This document shows positions 5,631 to 38,062 of a DNA stretch of 64,000 bases, piece by piece. Under the pieces are notes generated by a model that was given only the letters and a program-made list of their open reading frames with translations, was not told the DNA's origin and searched no databases. Source of the stretch: Candidatus Doudnabacteria bacterium (GTDB lineage Bacteria > Patescibacteriota > Doudnabacteria > UBA920); the NCBI GenBank assembly GCA_003151625.1, contig PLYC01000021.1:16235-80234 (forward strand), given 5' to 3'. Positions within the stretch are counted from its first letter, which is position 1. Every line of letters starts with the position of its first letter. The translations under genes were made by a program, and so were the position numbers.

Positions 5631-5819
5631 ATATTTAAAAAATTAATAATTAATTCTTGCTGGATTCTATATTATTATCCTTTTATCCCTGTTTGTCAAT
5701 GCAATTTAGGAATTTTTTTATAAAATAATTTGGCTTAAAAGTCAATCAAAAATCTTCCAAATAAAAAAATTGGGCGTTACCCATAGCGGGCAAACGCTCA
5801 ATTTCAATGGAGCTGTTAA

Positions 5820-23938: not shown

Positions 23939-24013
23939 GGCGCTATCATCTAATGGTTAGGATAAGTGGTTTTCATCCACTAAATCGGGGTTCGATTCCC
24001 CGTAGCGCTACCA
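23939..24013 (+). tRNA. tRNA-Glu (anticodon UUC), CCA encoded
   Basis: Manual fold. Acceptor GGCGCTA/TAGCGCT with a G1-U72 wobble. Anticodon stem AGTGG/CCACT with loop TTTTCAT. T-arm CGGGG-TTCGATT-CCCCG. Discriminator A plus CCA. Confidence 0.75.
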
Positions 24014-25508
24014 AAGCAGAATTGCCGCCTTCAAGGGCGGTTTTTGCTTGATAGATATAAGAAAGTTTCGGGGTTGTAAAAGTTTGATAATTATAAATGG
24101 GCTTAATTGGAAAAATCATACCCATCAATTTTAATTTTTGCCAGTAGGTAGTTTTAGGCCAGAGTTTTGGCAAGTCGGCTATAAAGTCAAAAACAAAGCT
24201 CACAGTGTCATCAGCGTTAAAGTCCTGGGTCGCGCTGTCGCTAATTTCCAACTGCTTATCCGCCAGTAATTCCTTGACCTTGGCAAATTCAATTTTAAAA
24301 TCCTCATCGGGCAGTAAATCTCTTTTAACCAAATCCAGCAGTTTGGCTTTTTCCTGTTTTAAGTTTTCTATTTCCTTTTTGGCCTGTTCCTGCTGTTGAT
24401 TCTGCTGTTTAAGCCTGTTTTGGCCGACATCGGTTAGCACCTTTTTAAAGGTTTCCATTATTTCTTTGGTGGGCGTAATTTTGGCCAGACACTTGTCAAA
24501 CTCGTCCTCCAAAGTTTTTTTGGTGATGGCTTTTTTAGACGGGCAGTTTTTATTGTAACAGCGGTAGTAATAATACATACTGCCCCAGCGGTTTTCCGAA
24601 GTATGGGCGGTTAAAGGCCGGGAGCATAAGCCGCAGTCAACTTGGTGGCGCAGGGGGAATAACTCATTAGTCCGACTACCGGCGATAATGTCGCCTTTGG
24701 TGAATCGTTTTAAAAGCTTTTGGTTTTTGTAATAAATATCCTCGGTAATGAGCGTGGGGTGAGAACCTTTAAATTCGCCGCGCTTGTTGCAGATGAGGCC
24801 GAAATAAAATTTGTTGGTTAAAATTTTATGCATCAGCTGAAAGGAAATTTCTTTGCCCGAAGGCGAACGCAAGCCCATTTTGTTTACCTTAATCCGTAAT
24901 TCTTCCTGGGTATACATGCCTTTGAAATACTCTTCAAGCAAAAACTTAACAAGGCCAAACCGGGCAGGGTCTAAGATTATGGTTTTGTCGTGCTTGCCGT
25001 GGTTTTGGTTGAGGTAGCCAAAAGGCGCGCGGTGCGGGAAGCGGCCGGACTTAAGGCACTGGATTATGCCGTCGGTAACTCTCTCACTGCGAACATCGTT
25101 ATCAAGCTGGGCAATGCTAGCCATCATATTTCCCATAAACTTGCCAAAGGAATTTTCGCCAATGGCTTCGGTGGTGGAAATTAACTGGACGCTGATTTTA
25201 TCCAGCAGGCTTTTTATGGCCGAGTAGTCGTTGACGTTGCGGGACAGGCGGTCAACTTTGTTGACGATGACAAAGCTGATTTTGTTTTTCTTGTCGGCGA
25301 CAAACTTAAGCATAGCCTGGAGTCCGGGGCGGTCTGCGGTCTTGGCAGATTCGCCCTCATCGGAAAAAAGCTTAATGGCCTTAATGCCTTTGTCCTGTGC
25401 GTATTTTAAGCAGGCTTCTTTTTGGTTTCCGAGGCTAAAGCCGTCCACTTGGTCGGCGGTGGATACGCGGTAATAAATCACTCCCAGTTTTTGGTTTTCT
25501 TGGTTCAT
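23973..25508 (-). CDS. Large serine recombinase (resolvase/invertase catalytic domain, recombinase domain and a zinc-ribbon). Its 3' end overlaps the tRNA antisense strand, so the true C-terminus is uncertain.
   Basis: Active-site 'YYRVSTADQ' with 'VVNKVDRLSRN'. A 'CGLCSRP...YYYYRCYNKNC' zinc ribbon. A coiled-coil tail. Confidence 0.85.
   Translation of the reverse strand: MNQENQKLGVIYYRVSTADQVDGFSLGNQKEACLKYAQDKGIKAIKLFSDEGESAKTADRPGLQAMLKFVADKKNKISFVIVNKVDRLSRNVNDYSAIKSLLDKISVQLISTTEAIGENSFGKFMGNMMASIAQLDNDVRSERVTDGIIQCLKSGRFPHRAPFGYLNQNHGKHDKTIILDPARFGLVKFLLEEYFKGMYTQEELRIKVNKMGLRSPSGKEISFQLMHKILTNKFYFGLICNKRGEFKGSHPTLITEDIYYKNQKLLKRFTKGDIIAGSRTNELFPLRHQVDCGLCSRPLTAHTSENRWGSMYYYYRCYNKNCPSKKAITKKTLEDEFDKCLAKITPTKEIMETFKKVLTDVGQNRLKQQNQQQEQAKKEIENLKQEKAKLLDLVKRDLLPDEDFKIEFAKVKELLADKQLEISDSATQDFNADDTVSFVFDFIADLPKLWPKTTYWQKLKLMGMIFPIKPIYNYQTFTTPKLSYIYQAKTALEGGNSALVALRGIEPRFSG
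24022..24047 (+). terminator. Hairpin plus T-run immediately after the tRNA
   Basis: gccgcc-ttcaa-gggcgg ttttt. Confidence 0.55.
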
Positions 25509-25561
25509 AAAATTATTTTAAAATTAAGAATCTTCGGTCAAAATATTATACACCCGAAAAC

Positions 25562-25720
25562 TCATCCGGCAAAATTATTTTGCCTTTTTTCCTTGGCCCA
25601 CAGGTCAAAACCGATTTCAGCCAACTGATACATATCCTGCCGGAGCTGTTCCAGTTCTTCCCGGGTGAACCTGTTGCCGTAATCCCCAAGCGAATTTTTA
25701 AAATCATCCAGGGAAATCAT
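25562..25720 (-). CDS. Possible small protein (52 aa, 'MISLDDFKNSLGDYGNRFTREELEQLRQDMYQLAEIGFDLWAKEKRQNNFAG')
   Basis: Hand translation of an ORF absent from the track because it is under 60 aa. Helical and charged. Next to the recombinase, as for an excisionase or RDF, but no motif supports that. Confidence 0.2.
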   Translation of the reverse strand: MISLDDFKNSLGDYGNRFTREELEQLRQDMYQLAEIGFDLWAKEKRQNNFAG

Positions 25721-25740
25721 GGCTAAATTTTGTAATGTTT

Positions 25741-25915
25741 AAAAGCATTGAATTTATTGGTAAATTTTCTTAATTCTCTAGTTAAGAGGTATATATCAAG
25801 TCAATGGAAATTAAAAAATATAATTATTTGGCCAAGAAACCTTGAAATTTAAAATCATTGAATTTATTAAGGAATTTTATTTATTTCCAAGATATGAGGT
25901 ATAGATCAAGTCAGC
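25741..25915. repeat. Two imperfect ~65-bp direct repeats (25741-25805 and 25852-25915) beside the recombinase
   Basis: 'aaaa[gt]cattgaatttatt..gtaaatttt.tt.att.c.ag.ta.gaggtata[tg]atcaagtca' is repeated with about 111-bp spacing. Confidence 0.55.
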
Positions 25916-26247
25916 AAAAACATTAAGGTTTTAGTTGTTATGGTAATATGTTATCGCTTAGTAACAAGCTTACGGCCGCGCCCCTGCGGGGCGGCGGCCT
26001 GCGCCGTTGTCCCACTGGCCGCTTTGCTGGCCGTGGGACACGGCGTCTCAAGGTTGGATCTGGAAAATTGCGGTTAAATCAGCCGGGCAGTCAGGGCAGG
26101 TTCAGAGGGAAATTAGGCAGTAAACTTAAATGTTTGTCAAAGTCAAAATGGGGGCAAAATTAAAAAACAATCTTCACTACTTGAAGATTATCGTTTAGGT
26201 CAAAAACAAACAAAGAGTTAAGCGTGCTACATAAGAATTCTTCTGTG

Positions 26248-26991
26248 CTACACTTCTTTTCGCATATTGGAGATTATTTTGTTAACGGTTCCCTCATCTA
26301 AAAACTCGCCAGTTTGTTTCCGGACGGCTCTGCGTATCTCTATTCGGGGCAAATCCCGCAAAGACCAGATAAGCTGGTTGCGCTTGGTAACGGCCGGGTC
26401 TTTGACTCTTAATTTGCCGAGCTTAATTTTAGGGTTTTGGTATTTGAGTTGTAACGGGTGGATGCTTGTCTTAAACTCTTTGGTAATAAAGTCCCTAATA
26501 ACGCGTTCTGAAGCGTAGGGGCTGATTTTAATGGCTAAGGGATAAGCGGCTAATTCGTTGTCTATGTGGGTTTTACCGTATTTATGTTTGGGCTTTTGTT
26601 TTAAGTCCGAGACTTTGCAAAGGCCTAAATTTTCGTCTTCCAGGTAAGTAATAAAATCCAAATCGTGAAAGATATGATACCAAATGGCGTAGGCAAAGCT
26701 ATTATTAAGCGCGTACTTTTTTATGAATTTTTCCCGAATTTCTTTTTCTATCTGTTCGGTCTTCTCATACAGAAAAGCCTCGCCTTCTAGAGATACGGGA
26801 TAAAATCGGGGCTTTACAGGCTTATCTTCCGGATTATCCGAACTAAGATATTCCGCCGGCACCACCTTGTCCGGCATATACTTGGCCCGCATTTCCCAAA
26901 CAGCATCGTTAAAATCCTGCTTTGCGGAAACTTCGTAAAAATATTCCAAGGCTTTTTTACGGCTTTCGGAGGGTTGTTTTTGTTTTGGCAT
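26248..26991 (-). CDS. Hypothetical protein (247 aa) in the island
   Basis: ORF with an acidic C-terminal portion. No recognised motif. Confidence 0.45.
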   Translation of the reverse strand: MPKQKQPSESRKKALEYFYEVSAKQDFNDAVWEMRAKYMPDKVVPAEYLSSDNPEDKPVKPRFYPVSLEGEAFLYEKTEQIEKEIREKFIKKYALNNSFAYAIWYHIFHDLDFITYLEDENLGLCKVSDLKQKPKHKYGKTHIDNELAAYPLAIKISPYASERVIRDFITKEFKTSIHPLQLKYQNPKIKLGKLRVKDPAVTKRNQLIWSLRDLPRIEIRRAVRKQTGEFLDEGTVNKIISNMRKEV

Positions 26992-27154
26992 AATTTATAA
27001 ATCTAAATCGTCAACATCAATACCCAAAGCTTCCATTCGGTTTAAGGCCTCATCCGGGTCATCCTGAAATTGCTCGGCCAGTTCTTCCTTTAAGCCGTCC
27101 TCGTCCAATTCCATTCTGATTTCGTCTTCCAAATCTTCAAGAGGCATAAAATAA

Positions 27155-30100
27155 TTACGCGGTCACTAAACTCTTGTTGTCATAGTAGTTTTCATAAACA
27201 AAATTATAAACTTCAAATTTTTTGAATTCACAATCTTGCTCTGTGTAGGTAGGCGCGGGTAGTTTCTCAAATAATATATCTGATATGGCGCTCTTTACCC
27301 CCGAGCGGTTGGTTTCAAAATCTCTCCAATGTGGGACAAGAAGCGGCTTAAGATTTTCCAATAATTCGTGTGCCGTGCCTTTAATTTTAGCAACTTCATC
27401 CGGGTTAAGATTTTCTTTAACCAATAAGTCAAAAATTGCCAACTCCTCCTCATTTAAATTTTCCTTCACCGCACGTTGTTCTTCCACGCTCAAATCTTTT
27501 GCAAGGGAAATAAGATCGTCAAAAAGCTTGTCAACATCATGCGCGCCACTGTTATATTCCTGTAACAAAGCAAGTAAGCGATCCATAAATTTGGTTCGTT
27601 TTTTGTTCTTTCTTACCATTTCCGCTATTTTTTGTTCTAGCTCTGCGCTCATGGCCTCCACTTGAAGGTTTTTGTTTTCTAGACCCTCAAAAAATGTATG
27701 CAGTGCTTCGGAATCCAACTTACTTAAATCTTTCAACTTTTTATGTGGCGATATTACGTACTCACCAGCTTGAATAGACTTATCAAGTAAGTCCTCTAAA
27801 TCTTTTTTTACCTGGGTAACATCCACACTTTGAGCGCCTACATCTCGAATACGCGAAGCCAATACGCGAACGGCAGTCACTTCTTTATAATAATCTTCCG
27901 CGCTTGGATCCGGCAACACCGATCGGTAGGCACTTTGTAAATCCGAGGCTAAGTTTAAAAACTTTTTTTTAATTTCCTGTTTGCCAATTATTAAGTCGGC
28001 GAATTTTTCTAACAATAACAATTTTTGATCACCTGGCGCTTCCAACAAAGGCTTAAGTTCAATTTGTATAGCGCTCAAGAAATGTTTTACGGTTTTAAGT
28101 GTACTTTTTAAATCTTCTAAAAGCTCGTCTTTGCTTTTGATTATTTCATCTTTGTCTACACCGCTGGCCGCATACAATGCCAAGGCACGCTCAATATTTT
28201 TGAATACGCCAATGTAATCAACTATTAGCCCGTTCTTTTTGTCTGCGTCAGCTACGCGGTTGGCGCGGGCAATCGTCTGCATTAAAGTATGATTTTTGAG
28301 TGGTTTGTCCAAATATAATGTGGAGAGGTTTGGCACGTCAAAGCCGGTCATCCACATAGCGCAGACAAAAATAATCCGCAGATTGCTGTCGGCTTTCTTG
28401 AATTCTTCTTCCAAATTTCCGTGAATTATCCTATCCCGAATCGGCTTAACGTCAATCTCAAACTCTTCCATATCGGCGATTTCGTTCTGATTGTCGCCCA
28501 GACTTACCATTACCGCCATGTCAACATTTTCGTGCTGTTCCAGTTTTGCCAGTATTTTTTCGTGCTCACGTTCATCCTTGGCTCGGGAAAGGTCCATGCG
28601 CAATTTAGCGATGTAGCGATCCCACTCTTTTTTAACTTTGTCGTACATCCGGAACGTGGTTTTTTTATCAATACAAACCACCATGGCCTTGCCATTATAA
28701 CCCCGCCCAATGTAGTGTTCTACAATATCCCGAGCAATAACATTTAAGCGATCTTCGCGGGTAATAATTTCGTAAAAATTGGAGTACTCGCGTTCTAATC
28801 TTTCTTCTTCATCTTCATCCAAATCATACCTATCCATAAGCTGGCCTAACTGCTCCTCAAGGTTTTCGTTGACGTTTTTTAGCCTCGGCACCCTGTTTTC
28901 ATAATACAGCGGCACAGTTGCGCCATCGGCCACGGACTGGCCAAAATTATACACCGAAACATAACTGCCAAAAGTTTTTACCGTTTCGGCTTCACCGTCT
29001 GTCATTAGCGGAGTGCCGGTAAATCCAATAAAAGATGCATTGGGAAGTGCTTTTCGCATATTTAGCGCCATGCGGTCATATTGGGTACGGTGCGCCTCAT
29101 CGGTCATTACGATAATATCCTCTCGTTCGGAAATGGCGCTGGCGATATCTTGAAATTTCTGAATTGTCGTAAATACTTGCCTATGGTCTGCTCTCAGCAA
29201 TTTTTTAAGATCTTCTACAGAATCCGCATGTACTTCTTTTTCATACACCGCGCCAACATTGGCAAAATTATCGTATGCTTGTCCGTCCAACTGTTTCCTG
29301 TCTGTAACAATAACAAAAGTAAAATTACCGGTAAGTTTTCGCAAAACCTTTTGCGAAAGCCAAACCATAGAATATGATTTGCCCGAGCCTTGGGTATGCC
29401 AAAACACGCCAAGTTTGCCGTCCATTTGCTTACGATTAACAACATGTTCAAACGCCCGGTTAACACCGTAATATTGGAAATACCGCGGCACTATCTTTTT
29501 AGTCTCTCCCTTTGATTCATCAAACAAAATAAAATTTTCAAAAATATCCAAAAGCCTTGTTTTATCGCATACTCCGCTAATTATCGTAGACAAATCTGTT
29601 CTTGGTTTATTATCTTCGCTGTCGGCTTTTTTCCACTCATTGAAAAATTCGTAGGGTGCTGTCAGCGAGCCAAATTTATTTTCTATGCCATTGCTGATAA
29701 TAATTCCCATATTATACCAAAACAATTTGGGAATAGTATCTTTGTAATCGCGAATGTTGTCTTTATATGCATCCACCAAACTCTTGTGAGACGCTTTGAG
29801 TTCTAATAATACAAGCGGAATACCATTTACAAACAGCACAACGTCGGTTCTTCTGGTATACATTTCTCCTACGATCCACAATTGCGAAACGGCCAGAAAA
29901 TGATTATTCTTTGGATTTTCAAAGTCAAAAAACCTTACCCGCTCCGGCTTGCTTTCGCCGTTGGATTGGACGACATTCACGCTCACGCCGTCCCGTAAAA
30001 GTTTGTAAATTTCCTGATTAGCTTTAACCAAGCTTAAATTTGACCTGTCCCGCGTCAATGCGTCCATTGCCTGAACTAAAGATTCTTGTGACAAACCTTT

Positions 30101-30286
30101 ATTTAATTTTACCAGAGCAGGTAACAAAAACTTTTTCAATACCACTTCACCTTGATTTTCCCTTCCAAGCTTTAAATCATCCTCATCCGCAAATGCGTTT
30201 ATATGACAATCCGAATTGCCCCAAACTTCCTTAATAAGTTTGATGACAGTCTGTTCAACCAAATTGTCTTCAGAAAATGGGTTCAT
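27155..30286 (-). CDS. hsdR: Type I restriction enzyme R subunit
   Basis: 1043 aa. Helicase motifs include 'MTDEAHRTQ' (DEAH box) and 'GFTGTP'. A long coiled C-terminal domain. Adjacent to hsdS and hsdM. Confidence 0.9.
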   Translation of the reverse strand: MNPFSEDNLVEQTVIKLIKEVWGNSDCHINAFADEDDLKLGRENQGEVVLKKFLLPALVKLNKGLSQESLVQAMDALTRDRSNLSLVKANQEIYKLLRDGVSVNVVQSNGESKPERVRFFDFENPKNNHFLAVSQLWIVGEMYTRRTDVVLFVNGIPLVLLELKASHKSLVDAYKDNIRDYKDTIPKLFWYNMGIIISNGIENKFGSLTAPYEFFNEWKKADSEDNKPRTDLSTIISGVCDKTRLLDIFENFILFDESKGETKKIVPRYFQYYGVNRAFEHVVNRKQMDGKLGVFWHTQGSGKSYSMVWLSQKVLRKLTGNFTFVIVTDRKQLDGQAYDNFANVGAVYEKEVHADSVEDLKKLLRADHRQVFTTIQKFQDIASAISEREDIIVMTDEAHRTQYDRMALNMRKALPNASFIGFTGTPLMTDGEAETVKTFGSYVSVYNFGQSVADGATVPLYYENRVPRLKNVNENLEEQLGQLMDRYDLDEDEEERLEREYSNFYEIITREDRLNVIARDIVEHYIGRGYNGKAMVVCIDKKTTFRMYDKVKKEWDRYIAKLRMDLSRAKDEREHEKILAKLEQHENVDMAVMVSLGDNQNEIADMEEFEIDVKPIRDRIIHGNLEEEFKKADSNLRIIFVCAMWMTGFDVPNLSTLYLDKPLKNHTLMQTIARANRVADADKKNGLIVDYIGVFKNIERALALYAASGVDKDEIIKSKDELLEDLKSTLKTVKHFLSAIQIELKPLLEAPGDQKLLLLEKFADLIIGKQEIKKKFLNLASDLQSAYRSVLPDPSAEDYYKEVTAVRVLASRIRDVGAQSVDVTQVKKDLEDLLDKSIQAGEYVISPHKKLKDLSKLDSEALHTFFEGLENKNLQVEAMSAELEQKIAEMVRKNKKRTKFMDRLLALLQEYNSGAHDVDKLFDDLISLAKDLSVEEQRAVKENLNEEELAIFDLLVKENLNPDEVAKIKGTAHELLENLKPLLVPHWRDFETNRSGVKSAISDILFEKLPAPTYTEQDCEFKKFEVYNFVYENYYDNKSLVTA

Positions 30287-30298
30287 AGATTGTTGTAA

Positions 30299-31765
30299 TT
30301 ATTCTATCCATTCTGGTTTAATTTTCCAATCTGTTTTTGGTAAAATTCCAAAATTGGATAGACAAAGTGTATTTCTTGGATCATCCATTGAAAAAGTTAT
30401 GGTAAAACCTCTACCGTCGTTATCTTTTGGTGGTTTAATTTTTCTTTCTAAATAATATTTCAGAGCATAAACTACCTTGAATCCCTTTATTTTGAATTCA
30501 TCAACAAATTTTGTAATCCTATTCACTCCTTTCTTTATTTCTCTAGCCTTGTCTGAATTTACGAAATAAGTACAATCGTATACATAACTTCCAACGATAG
30601 AACAATTGCATAATCGCGCTTCAATTCTCCCATTTTTAAATTCTTTGGCTTCAAAAAGAAGTTTATCCGATTTGATAACAAATTCAATTGATTCATGGCC
30701 AGTACATTTTATATAGAAAAGACACCCCTGTACGTCTTTGTCATTCGACTCATTTTTTACCTCCGTAATAACCTCGTCTGTTTTGCCATAAAAAAGTATG
30801 GGGCGCCAAGCACAAGGACTGTTATATCGAGTATTTTTTTCCCTAAAAATTTTGCCATTAAATAACCATTTCCTTTGCAATTTTGCTAGTTCGCCAACAA
30901 AAAAATTAATATGATCTTTTTCCAGCATGACATTGATACCATGAACTCGCTCTTTTCTTCTTTCCCAAAATGCTTGCGAACCATTTGAAAAATGCATTTT
31001 AAACCCAACCAACCCCTCTTTCTTATCGGTCAGCAACTCAAATACTTCATAATTTGGCATTCGGTGTAGTTTCTTTGTTTTTTTAAAAGAGTACCTAATC
31101 TGCCTGTATAGATCAAAAAAAGCTTGGTAAAAAGCAAAGCAGCGGGATAATTTTTCTGACAGTTCCTCAAAGGAAACTACTTTTGGTAGTCCATTTTCAC
31201 AAATTCTAAATTCAGTATCAGTTAGAGAATAATCGGAATGATAAAATGCATTCCTTATGTCATCATCAAAAAATGAATTAATTTTACTAATCAATTCTTG
31301 CTCGCCAATCTTTTCCGCTTCATTTTTAAGTGTTACTAATTTTTTTGTTGGCGACTGTGGTCTTACATGAAATGGTTTCTTTTTCCCCAATGATTCTCCT
31401 GGGAAAGGGAAAGGAACATAGTTTTTACCTTGTGCGCACCCCAATAAATTATACAGTATTTGGTACGGGGCCGACATCTCAATCGAGTGACAATATATAA
31501 GTAAGGCAACTCGAAAAGAGGATTTTTTTATACCCTTTTTGCTAATTTTTTGAAGTATTTTACTAAACTCGATTAAGGCTTCTTGTGCCTCAATAAAAGG
31601 GTCCCATCCGCCATCTTGTACACCGCTTACACGAAGCAGTGTGTAAATATACTGTAGCCCATTTGTGTCGCGTGCACGTTCAAAAAGATGGTCAAGATAA
31701 CTACGATATTCTTGATAATATGCTTTTTGTGAATCTTGGGTCTTATATTTTACAGTTGTGCCCAT
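30299..31765 (-). CDS. Uncharacterised 488-aa protein embedded between hsdS and hsdR. Candidate HEPN-domain abortive-infection-type effector.
   Basis: It sits where prrC sits in prr loci. It has no P-loop. It contains 'DDDIRNAFYHSDY' (an Rx4H HEPN-like motif). It has a Cys-rich C-terminal half. Confidence 0.55.
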   Translation of the reverse strand: MGTTVKYKTQDSQKAYYQEYRSYLDHLFERARDTNGLQYIYTLLRVSGVQDGGWDPFIEAQEALIEFSKILQKISKKGIKKSSFRVALLIYCHSIEMSAPYQILYNLLGCAQGKNYVPFPFPGESLGKKKPFHVRPQSPTKKLVTLKNEAEKIGEQELISKINSFFDDDIRNAFYHSDYSLTDTEFRICENGLPKVVSFEELSEKLSRCFAFYQAFFDLYRQIRYSFKKTKKLHRMPNYEVFELLTDKKEGLVGFKMHFSNGSQAFWERRKERVHGINVMLEKDHINFFVGELAKLQRKWLFNGKIFREKNTRYNSPCAWRPILFYGKTDEVITEVKNESNDKDVQGCLFYIKCTGHESIEFVIKSDKLLFEAKEFKNGRIEARLCNCSIVGSYVYDCTYFVNSDKAREIKKGVNRITKFVDEFKIKGFKVVYALKYYLERKIKPPKDNDGRGFTITFSMDDPRNTLCLSNFGILPKTDWKIKPEWIE

Positions 31766-31773
31766 AAGTGTAA

Positions 31774-33024
31774 TTATTTTAGTTCTCGTTTTCCTGTGAC
31801 TAACTGGGGAATCAAAAGATCGCGAATCTGGGAAAGATTTTGATTTTCATCCTGCAAAGACAATACTAAATCAAAATGTTTTTTTACTAGGTGGCTAAAT
31901 TCATTAAGAATTTCTGAACTTGGAATAATGACCTTAACATCCTTAACTTGTATCGGACTTAAATTTTGCTGGGCAGCACCATTAGACATCCCCTCCAGTT
32001 TTTGCTGAAATCTCTTTTGCCTAAATAATAAGTAAATGTATTCTCTTTTATTTGTTCCCGTTGGATTTAATTTCGCGACTCGTTGATTTAACAAATAATC
32101 TGAACCATATACAACACAAATACGTCCAACATTCCCAGTCAATGAAAGTAGAATGTCACCACTATTCAAAATGCAATTTTCTGGCAATTTTGAAGGTAGG
32201 TCATCAATAAACGAGTCAAAATTTAATACAAATTTTCCATCATGAACATTTTTTATGGTAACTATTTTATACTTTCCGCTTTCTTGGTATGTTGACCCTT
32301 TGAAAGGAAACCCTGAAATAACATTTACGAGTTCACTAATCTTTCCAACTTTCCAACCCTCTGGAATCATACCGTATTCGGTGCCGCTGTTAATCATTTT
32401 TTCTTTTTCATGGCCGGGAAATTTGAATTTTATAAACCACTCGGTATAGAGAAGCTGGGACATTTGCTCCAGGGCTTTGATGCGTTTTTCGTTATTTTCT
32501 ATTAGGTCGTCGTAGGCGGAGAGGACAGAAGCAATGCGTGTTTGGGTTGGGAGCTCTGGAAGCTCAATTTGCAAACCGTAAAGTAAATTTATTGTGTACG
32601 CTTTTTGGGACGATCCAATAGTACATTTATTTAATTCTGATTTACCTTGCGGTGAAAGAAGCCAATAATATAACCATTGACCATTTATTCCATGAAAATT
32701 TCTAAACCATGTTAAATTTCCATCCTTAAAATAAAATTCTTCGTTCTCTTTTACCAAATACGGATTTCCGATTGTTCCGACAGAGGTCAACAATAGATCA
32801 CCCTTTTGAGGCACACCGTATTTGGCCTTTATTTCCTCAAATTTATCTCTAGAAATATATATTAAGTCGCTTACTTCTGCAGAGCTTCTTTGTTTTTCGC
32901 TGATTTCCTTTCCACGATAGAAAGGAACGCCTGATGATAAATACTCATCAGCAAAAATTCTCTTGCTTGAGGTTATTTCACAATAATCCTTAATTTTTAC
33001 TTTTTGAAAACTTACCATAATCAT
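31774..33024 (-). CDS. hsdS: Type I R-M specificity subunit with two target-recognition domains
   Basis: The TRD starts 'KIKDYCEITSSKRI...GVPFYRGKEI' and 'LPEGWKVGKISELVNVISGFPFKG' are repeated. The conserved C-terminal 'LIPQLVTGKREL'. Confidence 0.82.
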   Translation of the reverse strand: MIMVSFQKVKIKDYCEITSSKRIFADEYLSSGVPFYRGKEISEKQRSSAEVSDLIYISRDKFEEIKAKYGVPQKGDLLLTSVGTIGNPYLVKENEEFYFKDGNLTWFRNFHGINGQWLYYWLLSPQGKSELNKCTIGSSQKAYTINLLYGLQIELPELPTQTRIASVLSAYDDLIENNEKRIKALEQMSQLLYTEWFIKFKFPGHEKEKMINSGTEYGMIPEGWKVGKISELVNVISGFPFKGSTYQESGKYKIVTIKNVHDGKFVLNFDSFIDDLPSKLPENCILNSGDILLSLTGNVGRICVVYGSDYLLNQRVAKLNPTGTNKREYIYLLFRQKRFQQKLEGMSNGAAQQNLSPIQVKDVKVIIPSSEILNEFSHLVKKHFDLVLSLQDENQNLSQIRDLLIPQLVTGKRELK

Positions 33025-34602
33025 TTATAAAATACTTTCCCAATCGTCCTGGATATTTTTTTCCAGCTTGTGAGCTTCGACGGTTAAACCTGTAAATTCA
33101 CTCATTAATTCTTTCATTCGCGCGTTAAAGTCCACATCGCTCATTTCTTTTTCTATAATCTCCACATAACGCCCAGGATTAAGTGAGTAGTCGTTAGCTC
33201 GAATTTCCTCAAGAGTTGCAACTTTGCATCGGCCTTTAATGTCTTGATATTTTTCTTCGCCTTTTTCTTTGCGATAGCGGCGAACAACACCGGCGATTTC
33301 TTGTATTTGCTCATCTGTCCAGTCGCTATGAGCACGGTCAATTTCGGTAAAAATATCTTGCGCGTTTATAAATAAAACTTTGTTTTGCCGTTCGCTGCCG
33401 CTTTTGCGTTTGTCAAAAAACCACAAGGTACAGGAAAGTGTAGCGTTCATAAACATATTTGTGCCAACGGAAACAATTGCATCCACCATTCCGGCGTCTA
33501 CCATTTTTTTGCGGATTTCTTTTTCCGCATTTCCGGCATCACTGGAAGCGTTTGACATAACAAAGCCTGCCCGTCCTTGCGGGTTTAAAGCACTAGCAAA
33601 CATTTGCATCCATAAATAATTAGCGTTGCTGATTTCACCTTTACCAGTAAGCGGCAATCCTAAATTGTATCGCGGGTCGCCTTGAATTTTTGCTGGATCA
33701 ATTACAATTTGTTTGTTCTTGTCTTTGCCTTTTACATTAAACGGCGGATTTGCAAGGACAAAGTCAAAAGCGCCAACGCTGTTAAACGTATCGGTATAAA
33801 AAGAATTTACTTCCGCAATTTTACCCGACAAACCGTGAATAGCTAGGTTCATTTTGGCCGTGCGAATGTTGCTACTACCTTTTTCTTGGCCATACAGTGC
33901 AACTTCGTTCATAACTTGAGTTTTCTTTTCGGAATGCGCTTTAACAAAATTTGCAGACTGCACAAACATACCGCCGCTTCCGCAGGCGGGGTCGTATATT
34001 TTTCCATGGTATGGCTCAATAATTTCTACCAGTAATTTAACAATAGATTGCGGCGTAAAAAACTCGCCGCCTTTGGCTCCTTCGGCGCGCGCAAACTCAC
34101 CAAGGAAATATTCGTAAATTTCCCCGAATGCGTCACCCTCAATGTCATCGGGGATTTGATTAAAATTTTTCAGTAAGGTGATTAATATCTGACTATTTTC
34201 GCCTGGAATTTTGTGAAGCGAAGTATAATCTTGCGGCAAAACACCGGCAAGATCGGTATTTTCTTCTTCTATTGCCTTCATCGCATCATTAATTTTTTTG
34301 CCAATATTTGCACTCTCAGGTAGGCTCATTAAATAAGAATACGTGGCAATTTCTGGCAAATACAGAACACCCTTGGATTTATAATGGTCAGGCGTAATAG
34401 GTTTATTTCTTCCGGAATAAGCTTTAACAGCGCGCTCTGCAACAATCTCCGACTGGAATCTCTTAAAACGTACGTCCGCAAACTTAAGAAAAATAAGCCC
34501 TAAAATTGGCTCGGAAATTTCGTTTAATTTTAGCCCGGAGTTTGCCCGAAGCTGTACCGCCGCAGACCAAAGCCTTTCGTGAAGTTGTTTTCTGGTTGTC
34601 AT
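33025..34602 (-). CDS. hsdM: Type I R-M N6-adenine DNA methyltransferase subunit
   Basis: Motif IV 'VLANPPFN', motif I 'DPACGSGGMF' and an HsdM N-terminal domain. Confidence 0.9.
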   Translation of the reverse strand: MTTRKQLHERLWSAAVQLRANSGLKLNEISEPILGLIFLKFADVRFKRFQSEIVAERAVKAYSGRNKPITPDHYKSKGVLYLPEIATYSYLMSLPESANIGKKINDAMKAIEEENTDLAGVLPQDYTSLHKIPGENSQILITLLKNFNQIPDDIEGDAFGEIYEYFLGEFARAEGAKGGEFFTPQSIVKLLVEIIEPYHGKIYDPACGSGGMFVQSANFVKAHSEKKTQVMNEVALYGQEKGSSNIRTAKMNLAIHGLSGKIAEVNSFYTDTFNSVGAFDFVLANPPFNVKGKDKNKQIVIDPAKIQGDPRYNLGLPLTGKGEISNANYLWMQMFASALNPQGRAGFVMSNASSDAGNAEKEIRKKMVDAGMVDAIVSVGTNMFMNATLSCTLWFFDKRKSGSERQNKVLFINAQDIFTEIDRAHSDWTDEQIQEIAGVVRRYRKEKGEEKYQDIKGRCKVATLEEIRANDYSLNPGRYVEIIEKEMSDVDFNARMKELMSEFTGLTVEAHKLEKNIQDDWESIL

Positions 34603-34653
34603 ACTAATTTATATTTAAAAATAACTGCTCGCGCTTTAATTTTTAGTCCTTTG

Positions 34654-35922
34654 CTATTTCAATAAATCCTCAAGCTCACAGGAGAGCAGGGCGGATTTGT
34701 TAAGCACGATTTGTTCTTTCTGGTTTAGGTTGTCCGCGGTAAGTCTAATAACTTTTGTGATTATAGCGTTGCCAATAACAACGTGGTTGGTTTTCTTTAA
34801 GTAGTTTTCGGTTTTTTCGTAAAACAGTGTTATAAAGCGCTTTAGCTTGTCGCTTAGTTTATCTTTCATATTTCCCGTAACCAATGCGACTACTTTTTCG
34901 TTTATTTCCGTCGGTATATTCCCCTCCGCGAATACTATCCAATAATCGCTTATGGCATAGGCAAAGCGCACTGGCATTTTATCTTTAGTTTCGTAAAAAT
35001 AAACAAAACGGTAATTCTGGGAACTAAAATCCTGGCCAATGGCTATTTCGCGCAACTCGCCGACTGTATTTATATCGTAAGAGTTTACAAGCCGGAGATA
35101 ATTTTCCAGCCAAGTTTCAAGCCAATGCGTAATAAAAGTCTGATCCACAAATAGCGGAGTTAAATCCTGCTGTAAGTTTGTTTTGTTTACTTTGTTCATT
35201 TGCACGGTCAGCCGGTCAAACAGCGCCTGCAAATGCGTAACATCAACCTCCTTGGCTTTAAGATAGTCCAAATCGGGGACAGTTTTCTTTTCCATATACC
35301 ACAGCAGGTCGTAAATGTCGCGGCCTTTTTCTTCGTATATTTCCTTGCCCACGCCACGCTGTCCACGTAAAAATATAGCGGCAATTTTACTGGCCATAAG
35401 CGCAGACATATTGTAAGTCTTTATTACGAATGACAGCTGGTCGTGGTTTACGGGTATCCGTTCCGTAACCGCTTTGGGAGCCGTAAAATGGTTCAAATCA
35501 ATTTTAACGTGCACCTGTTTTGAAGGGTGGCTCATTCCCAGCTCGTCGCCGATAATGAATTTTAAAAGCAACCCGCGGCCGTTGGTAATTTTTATGTTCA
35601 AAAGATCCGGCCCGGTGCTGTAGGTTTCCAAAAAATGTTCCTGCAACGCTTCCTTAAGGTTGTTAAGCAAGCTGTCGGTAGGGGCTTCCGCAATTTCAAA
35701 ATCCAAATCAACGGACATTCTGTTCAACTCATGGCAAATGCGCAAGGCGGAGCCGCCGTACATAGTCCAATTGCTGTAGACCGGGTGGTGATAAATAAAA
35801 TTTAACAGGTAATACTGCAATTCCTCTTTTAAGGCGTTGCGCTGAACTTCAATATCCACCTGTCCGTAACGAGACAGGTCTTCAAGTTTTCTTTTTAGTA
35901 AAATAATTATTTGGTTATTCAT
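34654..35922 (-). CDS. AbiEii/AbiGii-family nucleotidyltransferase (DUF1814) toxin-like protein
   Basis: 'TMYGGSALRICHELNRMSVDLDF' matches the AbiEii NTase signature 'GGTAL...R.S.DLDF'. It overlaps the upstream partner by 8 bp. Confidence 0.65.
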   Translation of the reverse strand: MNNQIIILLKRKLEDLSRYGQVDIEVQRNALKEELQYYLLNFIYHHPVYSNWTMYGGSALRICHELNRMSVDLDFEIAEAPTDSLLNNLKEALQEHFLETYSTGPDLLNIKITNGRGLLLKFIIGDELGMSHPSKQVHVKIDLNHFTAPKAVTERIPVNHDQLSFVIKTYNMSALMASKIAAIFLRGQRGVGKEIYEEKGRDIYDLLWYMEKKTVPDLDYLKAKEVDVTHLQALFDRLTVQMNKVNKTNLQQDLTPLFVDQTFITHWLETWLENYLRLVNSYDINTVGELREIAIGQDFSSQNYRFVYFYETKDKMPVRFAYAISDYWIVFAEGNIPTEINEKVVALVTGNMKDKLSDKLKRFITLFYEKTENYLKKTNHVVIGNAIITKVIRLTADNLNQKEQIVLNKSALLSCELEDLLK

Positions 35923-36535
35923 TGTTTAAATATTTTTTAATCATCTCATAAAATAAAGTCTGCTCCTTTTTGTCCATTTCTTCAATATCAATGCGCAGGT
36001 CGCGGATTAGCCCATCCACCATTTCCGGCTTTATCCCCCGAAACTGTCTGGTCTTAAAATACAACAGGTCAAACAATGCTTTGGAAGGCGCGGCAATAAA
36101 AAAATCAAATTTTCCTTTTACCAAAGAGAATCCGGAAAATAATTCTTTTTTAATTGAATTGTAGCCAAAGTTTCCGGCCCGCGTCTGGTAGTCTCTGGTA
36201 ACTTTTAGCGTAACCGAGGTAATAGTCTGGATGGCTTCGGTTGTTAGTTCGTAATACTGCAAAGCCGCCCAGGAGCTGACGTAAGACGGCGTCCTAATGA
36301 CGTTGGCCAGATAAAATTTGTAGGAAATATCCGCCCTGTTGTTTTCGTAAAAGTAAGTTGTTGTATACAGCCCTTTTTTAAACTGGATAATATCCTTGGA
36401 CTTCAAAGAGCGGCCGATATAGCTATCAACCGTGGTATTTTTTAGGCCGTACTGCTTGCTTAACTGGTAAATAGCGCTTTTGTTAAAATACGGCAAACTC
36501 TTGAGCTGTTCTAACAATATTTCTCTATATTTCAT
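35915..36535 (-). CDS. Probable AbiEi-type antitoxin/transcriptional regulator, partner of AbiEii
   Basis: 206 aa immediately upstream of, and overlapping, the AbiEii-like gene. This is the typical AbiEi size and arrangement. No strong motif, so it is called by context. Confidence 0.45.
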   Translation of the reverse strand: MKYREILLEQLKSLPYFNKSAIYQLSKQYGLKNTTVDSYIGRSLKSKDIIQFKKGLYTTTYFYENNRADISYKFYLANVIRTPSYVSSWAALQYYELTTEAIQTITSVTLKVTRDYQTRAGNFGYNSIKKELFSGFSLVKGKFDFFIAAPSKALFDLLYFKTRQFRGIKPEMVDGLIRDLRIDIEEMDKKEQTLFYEMIKKYLNNE

Positions 36536-36631
36536 AATTGTGATGTAATCATAACAATGATGAAATACTTTGTCAATATGGATAGTTATTTGGATATAAA
36601 TTTAAGAAAATACCCTTTATTTATGGGTATT

Positions 36632-36790
36632 TTGCTTCCTTATGGCTTTTTATTGTAATTCTGGATCCCGTCCAGTCAAGGGTAAAACCAAATTATTTGC
36701 CATAGGCCATAAATTGGTTTTAATCCCGTTGACTGTCCAGGCGTTCCAGAATTTTGTTTTCGCCATAATCAGTAAGCAAAAAAGATTATG
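36632..36790 (+). promoter_or_regulatory. Conserved ~160-bp intergenic module, copy A (divergent region between abiEi and the radC-like gene)
   Basis: Aligns along its length with 38489-38651. Shared blocks: 'ttgcttccttatggctt', 'gtcaagggtaaa', 'tttatttgcc.t.ggccataaa', 'tttaatccc.ttgactg' and 'gccataat.agtaa'. The hairpin positions carry compensatory differences between the copies. Confidence 0.6.
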
Positions 36791-37270
36791 GAATACCAAG
36801 TCAATGTCAATTATCGGTTTCAAGCAGTTAATGAAAAGGAGGCAAAAGAAAAAGCTGTAAAATATTTAGCTAACACCCTAAAAGTCCAGCCAATGTCCAA
36901 GGCAGTATGCAGTCCCCTTGAGATTGCCGACCAGTGCTGGGATTTTAGGAAAAAGGACAAGGAGCACTTTTGCGTGTTCTTTTTAAATACCCAAAACCAA
37001 ATTATCAGCCGGGAGATTATTAGCATTGGAACTTTGAACGCCAGTCTAATTCACCCGCGGGAATGTTTTAGGACGGCAATATCTAAAAACTGCGCCTCAG
37101 TCATTTTTGTCCATAACCATCCAAGCGGCAGTCTAGAACCCTCGGACGAAGACATTGCCGTAACCAAGCGCCTTAAAGATGCCGGCAAACTTATCGGCAT
37201 CGAAGTTTTGGACCATGTGATTGTAACGGCTGAGTCCCATAAAAGCCTTAAGGAACAAGGCTTGGTATAA
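36788..37270 (+). CDS. RadC-like JAB-domain protein (DUF2466)
   Basis: JAMM/RadC signature 'VIFVHNHPSGSLEPSDEDIAVTKRLKDAGKLIGIEVLDHVIV'. Confidence 0.8.
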   Translation: MEYQVNVNYRFQAVNEKEAKEKAVKYLANTLKVQPMSKAVCSPLEIADQCWDFRKKDKEHFCVFFLNTQNQIISREIISIGTLNASLIHPRECFRTAISKNCASVIFVHNHPSGSLEPSDEDIAVTKRLKDAGKLIGIEVLDHVIVTAESHKSLKEQGLV

Positions 37271-37276
37271 GCCAGA

Positions 37277-38062
37277 CTAACTCTTTGAGCCCTTTTCGGT
37301 TTCGATTTTGAATTCTTCAAATTTGTTTTTATATGCAATAAAAAGATCTTGGGCCAAATCCAAAATTACTTTGGTATGTTTTTCCATTGTCGGCGATATT
37401 CTCTGACGCCTTGTTCTATAGCCTCGAGTTTTTAATAAGTTATCCGAGGTATTTATATCCATCTCGTGAATAATTTGATTCCTTACGGTAAAAGCATCTT
37501 TAAGTGCGTTCATTCTGTCAGCAGTGAATATCTTATTTGTGCTTAACCCAGAAGCGTCAGAAACCATACACAGTTGTCCAACGGACTGGAGGCTGTCTTT
37601 GGTCATACTGCTTAAGTATTCTTTTAAAAATATTTCCCTTGGATTTTGGTCTATCAAAGCCAAGGCAACTGTATTTAATATCTTTTCCGGACTCTTTTTG
37701 TCTATACCATTTTTAACGTAATTTCTAAATTTTTCTTGGGCATTTTTGTCTACAGTTATCAATTTTGAAAGTTTGGTTTTGGTCAGCTGTTTAACAAATA
37801 CGTCAAGTCCAGCGCAAGCAAAAATCAGCATTGCACGATATAGGTCTTGTTGGTAATGGGTAGATGGGCCACCCTTTGAGCCGCGTCTGATAATTTTATA
37901 CAGCAAATTGAAGTTATTAACGGACTCTGCTGTCTTTAGCAAAATATTGTATTCAAAACTAAAAAGACTGTCGTCCTTCTCAGCCGAAAGGTGAATTTTA
38001 TAAAATCCTAATTCCCGTTTTTTAACAGCCTTTTTCGCCTTACTGGATTTAAGCTTTGCCAT
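37277..38062 (-). CDS. Hypothetical 261-aa protein with a C-terminal HEPN-like Rx4HxxD motif
   Basis: 'AFTVRNQIIHEMD' resembles the HepT/HEPN motif R-N-x-x-x-H. The N-terminus is Lys-rich. Convergent with radC-like and preceded by a 112-aa ORF. Confidence 0.45.
   Translation of the reverse strand: MAKLKSSKAKKAVKKRELGFYKIHLSAEKDDSLFSFEYNILLKTAESVNNFNLLYKIIRRGSKGGPSTHYQQDLYRAMLIFACAGLDVFVKQLTKTKLSKLITVDKNAQEKFRNYVKNGIDKKSPEKILNTVALALIDQNPREIFLKEYLSSMTKDSLQSVGQLCMVSDASGLSTNKIFTADRMNALKDAFTVRNQIIHEMDINTSDNLLKTRGYRTRRQRISPTMEKHTKVILDLAQDLFIAYKNKFEEFKIETEKGSKS

What the first reader, a model, noticed from the sequence alone, without database searches (positions are those of the whole stretch)
30299..31765. 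Uncharacterised 488-aa HEPN-motif protein in the prrC slot of a Type I R-M operon (hsdM-hsdS-X-hsdR)
The gene order on the minus strand is hsdM, hsdS, X, hsdR. Gaps are 9 bp and 13 bp, which implies one operon. This is the position anticodon nuclease PrrC occupies in prr loci. Established work shows Abi_2/AbiD-like HEPN abortive-infection genes are often embedded in hsd operons.

X has no P-loop, so it is not PrrC or RloC. Around residue 170 it carries 'DDDIRNAFYHSDY', an Rx4H HEPN-type RNase motif. Its Cys-rich, beta-looking C-terminal 250 aa match nothing I recognise.

I read it as a candidate novel RM-linked abortive-infection RNase, kept silent by, or sensing, the Type I enzyme.
Basis: partly seen in the sequence, partly recalled or inferred. 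Interest (0 to 1): 0.78.

Follow-up and report, generated by a model that had tools for sequence, protein, structure and literature searches.

The report
New HEPN-like defence gene family
A 488-residue protein nested inside a Type I restriction-enzyme operon belongs to a large, unnamed protein family that probably cuts RNA to abort phage infection; this is a new version of a known strategy, and the family does not appear to depend on the restriction enzyme.

Summary
A 488-aa ORF (30299..31765, minus strand) lies between hsdS and hsdR, 8 and 12 nt from its neighbours, and carries RNAFYHSDY (R171/H176) and no P-loop.

X matches nothing in Pfam, NCBIfam, PADLOC, PHROGs or PDB sequences. It nevertheless founds a large family: 628 representative clusters across bacteria, plus one archaeal-labelled MAG and one phage.

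An HEPN assignment is supported but not proven:
- R-N-x3-H is 94-97% conserved.
- The motif ends a short helix before the last long helix, as in HEPN domains.
- A ~650-aa subfamily has lost the motif together with E59 and E96, and has gained an inserted domain with an invariant R-x4-H.

The C-terminal 259 residues model at pLDDT 95.6 yet have no solved relative.

Family members sit in defence islands. Fifteen percent lie directly after hsdS or hsdM, against a 2% background (p about 2e-6), in unrelated hsd systems. Relatives at 85%, 70%, 66% and 62% identity are not embedded, and no partner gene is conserved.

Verdict: a new single-gene, HEPN-like, probably RNA-cutting defence module that is a passenger of the hsd operon. 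PrrC-like control by the Type I enzyme is not supported.

The parts
30299..31765 (-). Gene X, 488 aa including the stop codon; founding member (class A) of an unnamed three-domain family
   Evidence: ORF list. 78 homologues in the word-indexed search and 628 representative clusters at E<=1e-3 in the exhaustive search. No hit in Pfam, NCBIfam, PADLOC, PHROGs or PDB sequences.
31070..31765 (-). N-terminal all-helical domain, residues 1-232; predicted HEPN-like effector domain
31229..31255 (-). RNAFYHSDY, residues 171-179: R-N-x3-H motif plus the family signature S-D-Y; putative catalytic R171 and H176
   Evidence: Translation. In 152 class A/B sequences: R171 in 143, N172 in 140, H176 in 141, S177 in 139, D178 in 140, Y179 in 138. 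The motif ends helix 168-175 and precedes a hairpin and the long helix 199-229. This is the position described for HEPN domains (PMC3710099).
30830..31069 (-). Middle all-beta domain, residues 233-312; holds most residues that are invariant across the whole family (E243, L252, G254, H258, R269, N278)
   Evidence: Translation. Invariant columns. Present in classes A, B and C. Beta strands in both models.
30302..30829 (-). C-terminal alpha/beta domain, residues 313-488; absent from the ~300-aa class B; no solved structural relative
31766..31773 (-). 8-nt hsdS-X spacer (ttacactt)
   Evidence: Sequence. No terminator-like site.
30287..30298 (-). 12-nt X-hsdR spacer (ttacaacaatct)
   Evidence: Sequence. 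AATAATTACA is repeated at both junctions of X.
31774..33024 (-). hsdS (Type I specificity subunit), directly upstream of X
   Evidence: Pfam Methylase_S 1.8e-32, two stretches. GC3 is 0.305, similar to X (0.270) and unlike hsdM or hsdR.
33025..34602 (-). hsdM (Type I methyltransferase)
   Evidence: Pfam N6_Mtase 9.7e-85 and HsdM_N 8.9e-19.
27155..30286 (-). hsdR (Type I restriction subunit), directly downstream of X
   Evidence: Pfam HSDR_N, SWI2_SNF2, T1R_D3-like and T1RH-like_C.

Best explanation
X is a self-contained, single-gene defence module of a previously unnamed family.

Effector (inferred): the N-terminal helical domain is a divergent HEPN-type domain. R171 and H176, probably helped by E59 and E96, would form a metal-independent RNase site, most likely composite across a homodimer as in other HEPN nucleases.

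Sensor or regulator (inferred): the conserved beta middle domain and the lineage-specific C-terminal alpha/beta domain would hold the nuclease latent and respond to an infection cue. Activation would cleave host and/or phage RNA and stop translation, giving abortive infection or growth arrest.

Relation to the operon: X is co-transcribed with hsdM-hsdS-hsdR as an embedded passenger. Embedding gives co-regulation and co-transfer with the restriction system and a second layer of defence. X does not need the Type I enzyme to be kept silent.

Shown: the gene, its operon position, the family, motif conservation, the fold resemblance, the defence-island contexts and the enrichment after hsdS.

Inferred: RNase activity, dimerisation, the sensor role of the C-terminal half, and the abortive-infection outcome.
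For: - Motif: canonical R-N-x3-H is conserved in 94-97% of 152 class A/B sequences.
- Position: the motif lies at the end of a short helix, followed by a loop/hairpin and the last long helix. PMC3710099 describes the HEPN motif at the end of helix-3, with inserts between helices 2 and 3.
- Complementary loss and gain: 56 class C proteins (~600-680 aa) lack R171 and H176, and also E59 and E96, while keeping R45, D55 and N106. They carry a ~200-aa insertion in the C-domain with invariant E41, R136 and H141.
- Domain-to-domain link: the N-domain and that insertion align motif-on-motif by hhalign (score 38.7, E 2.6e-5; reversed controls score about 14).
- Defence contexts: Shedu SduA_C, AIPR, SLFN/AlbA_2, Mrr, OLD, AAA_15/21 + HNH, KAP NTPase + TIR, methyltransferases. 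X's own island also holds AbiEi/AbiEii and a RiboL-PSP HEPN protein.
- hsd enrichment: 10 of 65 non-redundant loci have hsdS/hsdM just upstream on the same strand. The background is 7 of 942 ORFs; binomial p 1.7e-6.
- Single-gene module: no partner gene is conserved.
- Precedent: HEC-08, an embedded single-gene protein with an N-terminal HEPN domain and an unknown C-terminus, matches 5YEP and loses defence when the motif His is mutated (bioRxiv 10.1101/2024.01.29.577857).
Against: - No significant sequence or profile link to any curated HEPN family. Pfam scans of 70 + 9 + 54 family members gave only sub-threshold MauJ hits and one Csm6_HEPN hit at E 0.04.
- hhalign of the N-domain against a 105-sequence RiboL-PSP HEPN alignment gave E 0.2 with the motifs misaligned. 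The class C insertion against the same alignment gave E 0.03, motif-on-motif but not significant.
- PDB profile searches were empty.
- Superposition of R171/H176 on a known HEPN site could not be inspected.
- The residues invariant in every class are not the motif but a polar set in the N-domain and middle domain. The family's core function may therefore lie elsewhere.
- No experiment exists for any member.
Confidence: 0.55

Rival explanations
1. PrrC-like guard. X binds HsdM/HsdS or the whole Type I enzyme and is held inactive by it. It fires when a phage anti-restriction protein disables the enzyme.
For: - Same operon slot as prrC, with 8- and 12-nt gaps.
- When embedded, the family gene is usually directly 3' of hsdS (gaps from -50 to 18 nt); in two further loci it follows hsdM, and in two more hsdS lies two genes upstream. 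This holds across diverged lineages: 77%, 56%, 51% and 41% identical, plus two more distant members. Their HsdM is only 22-35% identical to this one.
- PrrC is the established precedent.
Against: - About 85% of non-redundant loci have no hsd gene nearby, including relatives at 85%, 70%, 66% and 62% identity.
- There is no ABC-ATPase or nucleotide-sensing domain, and no PADLOC PrrC hit.
- Partnering with many unrelated HsdS/HsdM proteins would need a very generic interface.
- The hsdS-hsdR junction is a general hotspot for embedded genes.
Confidence: 0.12
2. The HEPN resemblance is superficial or non-catalytic. The family's real functional site is the universally invariant polar cluster: R45, D55 and N106 in the N-domain with E243, H258, R269 and N278 in the beta domain. 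It would bind a ligand or carry out a different reaction, and R-N-x3-H would be accessory.
For: - Those residues are invariant in all three classes, whereas the motif is absent from class C.
- No profile homology to any HEPN family.
Against: - Class C replaces the lost motif with another invariant E + R-x4-H module instead of doing without one.
- The two motif regions align profile-to-profile.
- E59 and E96 decay together with R171 and H176, which is the behaviour expected of one active site.
Confidence: 0.18
3. X is a mobile-element gene rather than an antiviral one. It would be an addiction toxin or element-maintenance factor of integrative elements that carry serine recombinases, and hsd operons would be one of several places where it lands.
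For: - Large serine recombinases are the second most frequent neighbour: 10 of 40 genome loci within 6 kb, and 7 distinct loci within 3 genes.
- X's own island ends in a serine recombinase abutting tRNA-Glu.
- Homologues are split by frameshifts in L022 and L025.
- X is compositionally foreign, with GC3 0.27.
Against: - No cognate antitoxin or other conserved partner.
- Neighbours are overwhelmingly defence genes, not transfer or replication genes.
- The family is rare on plasmids (3 of 72,556) and in phages (2 of 50,697), and absent from IMG/VR by pattern scan.
- Defence islands are themselves typically mobile, so the recombinase link does not discriminate.
Confidence: 0.1

Closest known systems
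HEC-08 (DUF3644-type HEPN single-gene defence protein; Payne et al., bioRxiv 10.1101/2024.01.29.577857)
   Same: - Single gene nested in a multi-gene defence system.
- C-terminal part with no known structure.
- R-x4-6-H histidine needed for defence in HEC-08.
   Different: - X has no Pfam DUF3644 hit and no PADLOC hit.
- X's C-terminal half is a beta domain plus an alpha/beta domain, not zinc-ribbon-like, and has no conserved Cys pairs.
- HEC-08 was found embedded in Hma systems, not in Type I R-M.
- X is untested.
PrrC / RloC anticodon nucleases
   Same: - Gene slot between hsdS and hsdR of a Type I operon, on the same strand.
- Predicted HEPN-type RNase effector.
   Different: - No ABC-ATPase or P-loop domain and no PADLOC hit.
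- The HEPN-like domain is N-terminal rather than C-terminal.
- PrrC is almost exclusively embedded in Type I R-M, whereas only about 15% of X-family loci are.
Abi2 (AbiD/AbiF) and other Abi HEPN families: AbiJ, AbiU2, AbiV, ApeA
   Same: - Single-protein HEPN abortive-infection factors.
- Reported as often embedded in R-M operons (PMC3710099).
   Different: - No Pfam or PADLOC match to any of them at E<=0.1.
- X has a family-specific extended motif (RNAFYHSDY), a hairpin between the motif helix and the last helix, and two extra domains.
Minimal HEPN toxins of HEPN-MNT toxin-antitoxin pairs (SO_3166 5YEP, 8XDJ, HI0074 1JOG, TTHA0636 1WWP)
   Different: - They are ~130-aa proteins neutralised by an adjacent MNT nucleotidyltransferase.
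- X has no MNT neighbour and no other conserved partner.
- X's domain is about 230 aa, with a ~90-residue insert.
RiboL-PSP HEPN (PF18735), present in the same island at 37277..38062
   Same: - R-N-x3-H motif (RNQIIH).
- Resident of the same defence island.
   Different: Profile-profile comparison with X's N-domain is not significant (E 0.2). With the class C insertion it is weak: E 0.03, motif-on-motif.

Membership tests
HEPN superfamily | Conserved R-x4-6-H motif | tested here: met
   RNAFYH at residues 171-176. R is present in 143/148 and H in 141/150 non-gap class A/B sequences. R164 is invariant in the 54-sequence class B alignment.
HEPN superfamily | [quoted passage not shown] | tested here: met
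   In the model, the motif ends helix 168-175, a hairpin spans 179-198, and the terminal long helix is 199-229. A long insert with extra helices covers residues 81-163. The criterion is taken from PMC3710099.
HEPN superfamily | Fold similarity to solved HEPN domains | tested here: inconclusive
HEPN superfamily | Conserved acidic residue in an N-terminal helix near the motif | tested here: inconclusive
   E59 (128/138) and E96 (134/140) are conserved in classes A/B and are lost together with R171 and H176 in class C. Spatial proximity to the motif could not be checked.
HEPN superfamily | Sequence or profile homology to a curated HEPN family | tested here: not met
   - No Pfam, NCBIfam or PADLOC HEPN model is hit by X or by 130+ family members.
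- hhalign against RiboL-PSP HEPN: E 0.2.
- PDB profile searches were empty.
HEPN superfamily | Metal-independent RNase activity that leaves 2',3'-cyclic phosphate ends | not testable with these tools
   Requires biochemistry.
PrrC / RloC anticodon nucleases | N-terminal ABC-ATPase domain with a Walker A P-loop | tested here: not met
   No [AG]xxxxGK[ST] pattern in X. No ATPase family in Pfam.
PrrC / RloC anticodon nucleases | Match to the family model | tested here: not met
   PADLOC-DB scan of X returned 0 families at E<=0.1.
PrrC / RloC anticodon nucleases | Near-obligate embedding in Type I R-M operons | tested here: not met
   10 of 65 non-redundant loci are embedded. The closest non-identical relative, at 85% identity, is not.
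Abi_2 (AbiD/AbiF), AbiJ, AbiU2, AbiV, ApeA HEPN families | Match to the Pfam or PADLOC family model | tested here: not met
   No hit at E<=0.1 for X or for the family alignments.
HEC-08 / DUF3644 HEPN defence proteins | N-terminal DUF3644 domain | tested here: not met
   No DUF3644 hit in Pfam and no PADLOC hit.
HEPN-MNT type II/VII toxin-antitoxin | Adjacent minimal nucleotidyltransferase antitoxin | tested here: not met
   X's neighbours are hsdS and hsdR. No partner is conserved in any of about 90 non-redundant loci. The AbiEii nucleotidyltransferase in the island pairs with AbiEi.
Defence-system-embedded genes ('guilt by embedding', Payne et al. 2024) | Same-strand gene nested between core genes of a Type I R-M system, with non-embedded homologues elsewhere | tested here: met
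   Operon layout. Embedded and non-embedded homologues. Criterion.

The most novel reading that the evidence does not exclude
The family is a modular sensor-effector in which a conserved scaffold carries a relocatable HEPN active site. The scaffold would be the N-domain framework plus the beta middle domain, with their invariant polar cluster R45/D55/N106/H258/R269/N278. The active site sits in the N-domain in classes A/B and in a C-domain insertion in class C. In hsd operons the scaffold would read out the state of HsdS/HsdM or an anti-restriction protein, making X a P-loop-free functional analogue of PrrC built on a new fold.
Probability: 0.12. Interest if true: 0.75.

Novelty: new variant of a known kind. 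Interest (0 to 1): 0.45.

Why it matters
The family gives a name and an anatomy to several hundred 'hypothetical proteins'. They are spread across Patescibacteria, Firmicutes, Proteobacteria, Planctomycetes and Actinobacteria, plus one archaeal-labelled MAG and one phage, and no defence-annotation library currently detects them.

If the RNase prediction holds, it adds a single-gene defence system that is prominent in ultra-small CPR bacteria (the candidate phyla radiation, i.e. Patescibacteria), whose immunity is poorly charted.

The class A/B versus class C pattern is a natural experiment. The catalytic motif is lost in one domain and regained in an inserted one. This both supports the catalytic assignment and offers a way to separate sensing from cleavage.

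The C-terminal half is a confidently predicted fold with no solved relative.

The finding does not overturn anything. HEPN effectors nested in R-M operons are an established theme.

Tried and rejected
- **Direct family assignment.** Pfam, NCBIfam, PADLOC and PHROGs scans of X, and of 70, 54 and 9 relatives, gave nothing usable. The sub-threshold MauJ (PF17419) hits fall in the class C insertion only (best 27.4 bits against a cutoff of 28). A literature search for MauJ together with HEPN found nothing relevant.
- **PDB by sequence or profile.** X, class C (A5), class B (A6) and the insertion alone (A8) gave only spurious weak hits.
- **Fold searches.** Foldseek against the PDB found nothing below E 0.1. 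The afdb50 library was unavailable.
- **Link to a bona fide HEPN family.** hhalign against a RiboL-PSP HEPN alignment was not significant for the N-domain and marginal for the class C insertion.
- **Large search with the insertion profile.** Only two fragments were returned, so no annotated standalone relatives were found.
- **Tandem paralogue idea.** The 516-aa gene upstream of the homologue in L047 is not a family member.
- **Conserved antitoxin or partner.** None was found by BLAST or phmmer clustering of neighbours.
- **Zinc-binding reading of the 'Cys-rich' C-terminus.** Rejected, because the cysteines are mostly not conserved.
- **att-site search at the tRNA-Glu end of the island.** No repeat of 14 nt or more was found in the window.
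- **IMG/VR scan.** No relatives found.
Full report

Yes. The window has an ATG-initiated ORF of 488 codons at 30299..31765 on the minus strand. It is flanked on the same strand by three genes with unambiguous Type I restriction-modification domains:
- hsdM at 33025..34602 (N6_Mtase 1e-84, HsdM_N)
- hsdS at 31774..33024 (Methylase_S, two target-recognition halves)
- hsdR at 27155..30286 (HSDR_N, SWI2_SNF2, T1R_D3-like, T1RH-like_C)

The spacers are 8 nt (hsdS TAA-ttacactt-ATG) and 12 nt (X TAA-ttacaacaatct-ATG) rather than 9 and 13. Neither spacer holds a terminator-like site. The best promoter-like site in the region (11/12 matches plus an extended TG) lies upstream of the AbiEi/AbiEii pair that precedes hsdM.

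The stated peptide DDDIRNAFYHSDY is residues 167-179, so the R and H are R171 and H176. There is no Walker A motif. 'Cys-rich' is an overstatement: there are 7 Cys in the last 256 residues, only two are well conserved, and there are no CxxC pairs.

**2. What is X by sequence?**

X hits nothing in Pfam, NCBIfam, PADLOC or PHROGs, and nothing in the PDB by sequence. It is not an orphan, however. The word-indexed search found 78 relatives. The exhaustive search of 1.84 billion representatives found 628 at E<=1e-3 and 101 at E<=1e-30. Every named member is 'hypothetical protein'.

Genome loci come from Patescibacteria (Uhr-, Zambryski-, Kaiser-, Nomura-, Adler-, Woesebacteria, Saccharibacteria), Paenibacillus, Bacillus, Proteobacteria, Planctomycetes, Actinobacteria, Melainabacteria and one Woesearchaeote.

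The window itself is part of a 246,769-bp metagenomic contig. X's closest named relative is from an Uhrbacteria MAG.

**3. Anatomy**

Domain HMMs cut from the alignment define three modules:
- an N-domain, residues 1-232
- a middle domain, residues 233-312
- a C-domain, residues 313-488

The 223 collected proteins fall into three architectures:
- Class A (X itself, about 480-530 aa): N-domain, middle domain and C-domain.
- Class B (about 250-340 aa, the most widespread): N-domain plus middle domain, or the N-domain alone.
- Class C (about 600-680 aa): all three domains plus a ~200-residue insertion inside the C-domain.

AlphaFold2 gives a confident model of X (pLDDT 92.1, pTM 0.84). Residues 13-229 are all-helical, residues 233-288 form a beta meander, and an alpha/beta domain follows. 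Residues 230-488 modelled alone reach pLDDT 95.6.

**4. Is the N-domain a HEPN domain?**

Evidence for:

(a) The motif is the canonical R-N-x3-H. In 152 class A/B sequences, R171, N172, H176, S177, D178 and Y179 are present in 143, 140, 141, 139, 140 and 138.

(b) The motif closes a short helix (168-175). A hairpin follows, and then the long terminal helix 199-229. [quoted passage not shown]

(d) There is an internal evolutionary control:
- The 56 class C proteins have lost R171 (3 of 30 non-gap), H176 (0), E59 (9/56) and E96 (6/44).
- They keep R45 (56/56), D55 (54/56) and N106 (49/49).
- Their C-domain insertion has an invariant R-x4-H (R575/H580 in P0073) across 52 sequences.
- That insertion also has an invariant glutamate upstream: E41, R136 and H141 in the 25-sequence insertion alignment.
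- hhalign aligns the N-domain motif region on the insertion motif (IRNAFYHSDY on IRGALAHGD) with score 38.7 and E 2.6e-5. Reversed-sequence controls score about 14.

So a set of residues behaves as one site: it is lost as a set, and only where an equivalent site has been gained.

Evidence against:
- No curated HEPN profile is reached by X or by more than 130 relatives.
- A 105-sequence alignment of the island's own RiboL-PSP HEPN family gives E 0.2 against the N-domain, with the motifs out of register. Against the class C insertion it gives only E 0.03, with the motifs in register.
- Foldseek finds nothing.

I therefore call the domain HEPN-like, with roughly two-in-three confidence that it is a true catalytic HEPN domain.

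**5. The C-terminal half**

The middle domain carries much of the family-wide invariance (E243, L252, G254, H258, R269, N278) and is kept in all three classes. Its role is unknown. I could not test whether these residues and R45/D55/N106 form one site, because model coordinates are not exposed.

**6. Genomic context**

X lies in an island of about 14.5 kb bounded by a large serine recombinase that abuts tRNA-Glu. The island also holds AbiEi/AbiEii, a RadC-like gene and a RiboL-PSP HEPN protein.

Annotated contexts of relatives, by identity to X:

| Relative | Identity | Context |
|---|---|---|
| P0003 | 85% | HTH, DnaJ-like and TPR genes; no R-M |
| P0010 | 66% | Mrr plus an AAA_15/21 ATPase, or a serine recombinase |
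| P0014 | 62% | Methyltransferases and a serine recombinase |
| P0017 | 49% | Stand-alone |
| P0040 | 41% | hsdM-hsdS-homologue (2-nt gap)-AAA_15/21 ATPase-HNH |
| P0025 | 43% | Shedu SduA_C, methyltransferases, homologue, SLFN/AlbA_2 |
| P0028 | 44% | Methyltransferase, AIPR, PDDEXK, homologue |
| P0076 (class C) | 30% | After a methyltransferase |
| P0056 (class B) | 51% | Fic-hsdM-hsdS-homologue (2-nt gap)-OLD nuclease-hsdR |

An Agrobacterium plasmid has NUDIX-NUDIX-homologue-KAP NTPase-TIR. A Microcystis phage carries a homologue as an opposite-strand accessory gene (a 'moron') beside Dam methylase.

**7. Co-occurrence statistics**

I pooled 138 loci from genomes, look-ups and metagenomes and collapsed them to 90 clusters at 90% identity. 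Of these, 65 have at least 1.5 kb of upstream sequence. Ten of the 65 (15%) have hsdS or hsdM on the same strand within three genes upstream, and 12 have any Type I gene within three genes.

Among 942 ORFs more than three genes away in the same loci, 7 are Type I-like. The chance expectation is therefore about 2% per locus, and the excess has binomial p 1.7e-6.

In most embedded cases the gene directly follows hsdS. The host hsd systems are only 22-35% identical in HsdM, so embedding happened repeatedly.

The only other recurrent neighbour is a large serine recombinase. No partner gene is conserved. PADLOC and Pfam scans of the 139 flanking proteins put Type I specificity and methyltransferase subunits at the top of the list.

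**8. Interpretation**

The facts fit the 'embedded defence gene' pattern described by Payne et al. In that work, genes nested in Type I R-M, BREX, DISARM and Hma loci are mostly defence systems, lie on the same strand in 96.7% of cases, and usually also occur un-embedded.

The nearest characterised analogue is HEC-08. It is a single protein with an N-terminal HEPN domain that matches 5YEP and a C-terminus of unknown structure, and its defence activity dies with the motif histidine.

X is not PrrC or RloC: it has no ATPase and no model hit. It is not a member of Abi2, AbiJ, AbiU2, AbiV, ApeA or DUF3644 by any model available here.

Close relatives thrive without hsd neighbours, and embedded ones sit in unrelated hsd systems. 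I therefore infer that the protein controls itself, presumably through the middle and C-terminal domains, rather than being silenced by HsdMS. The recurrent position right after hsdS is more simply explained by the known hotspot between hsdS and hsdR, together with co-transfer. A functional tie to HsdS is not excluded (12%).

**9. Composition and junctions**

X (GC 0.340, GC3 0.270) and hsdS (0.349, 0.305) differ from hsdM (0.413, 0.382), hsdR (0.403, 0.415) and the window as a whole (0.428). A 10-nt direct repeat, AATAATTACA, spans both stop-codon junctions of X. About 0.2% of random window pairs in the island share such a repeat, and it is absent from the 77%-identical embedded locus L002. 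Both points suggest that X arrived by insertion, but they are weak.

**10. Verdict**

This is a real, conserved and previously unannotated family. The best reading is a single-gene HEPN-like RNase defence module that rides inside a Type I operon (confidence 0.55).

It is a new variant of a known kind, not a new principle. Three features deserve follow-up:
- the apparent relocation of the active site between classes
- the invariant polar cluster outside the motif
- a confidently predicted C-terminal fold with no solved relative

Noticed in passing
window 23939..38062: An integrative defence island of about 14.5 kb. tRNA-Glu (23939..24013, +) overlaps the 3' end of a large serine recombinase ORF (23973..25508, -). 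The island then holds an unassigned 247-aa ORF (26248..26991), hsdR, X, hsdS, hsdM, AbiEii (34654..35922), AbiEi (35915..36535), a RadC-like gene (36788..37270, +) and a RiboL-PSP HEPN protein (37277..38062). No repeat of the tRNA region of 14 nt or more was found elsewhere in the window.
   Followed up: partly
window 30299..33024: X (GC3 0.270) and hsdS (GC3 0.305) are compositionally distinct from hsdM (0.382) and hsdR (0.415) within the same operon. Yet in locus L002, X is 77% identical while hsdS is only 33% identical.
   Followed up: partly
window 30290..30301 and 31768..31779: The 10-nt direct repeat AATAATTACA spans both stop-codon junctions of X (the hsdS stop and the X stop). About 0.2% of random 23-nt window pairs in the island share a repeat of this length. 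It is not present in L002. It may be an insertion scar.
   Followed up: partly
proteins P0073-P0078, P0082, P0098 and others (class C); locus L055 5987..7948: Relatives of ~600-680 aa have lost the N-domain R-N-x3-H together with E59 and E96. They carry a ~200-aa insertion in a C-domain loop with invariant E, R and H (IRxxLAHG). The insertion gives sub-threshold Pfam MauJ (PF17419) hits. This looks like a relocation of the active site.
   Followed up: yes
X residues R45, D55, N106, E243, H258, R269, N278 (window about 30932..31633): The residues that are invariant in all three architectural classes are a polar set shared between the N-domain and the beta middle domain, not the HEPN-type motif. 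Whether they form one pocket could not be checked.
   Followed up: no
L011 4632..8305; L013; L014 9794..13431; L015 1179..4816: A 374-aa class B homologue with an N-terminal HTH extension is followed by an Erm-like rRNA adenine dimethylase (PF00398) and a serine recombinase. The same cassette occurs in MAGs labelled Saccharibacteria and Gammaproteobacteria/Pseudomonadales. This indicates either a cross-phylum mobile element or binning contamination.
   Followed up: no
L022 7842..8625; L025 9893..10910: The family homologues in these loci are split into two ORFs by frameshifts, so they are probably pseudogenes.
   Followed up: no
L059 (Microcystis phage Mwe-Yong1, MZ436628) 4848..5798; L058 (Agrobacterium pusense pAt2) 5896..6912: A phage carries a 316-aa homologue as an opposite-strand accessory gene (moron) between tail genes and a Dam methylase. 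A plasmid carries a homologue between two NUDIX genes and a KAP NTPase plus a TIR-domain protein.
   Followed up: partly
contig of P0056 (ERZ1426828, no DNA held); L052 4001..10416: Other hsd operons that hold a family member also carry a second embedded system directly after it: an OLD-family nuclease in one locus, and an AAA_15/21 ATPase with an HNH nuclease in the other. These are stacked embedded defences.
   Followed up: no
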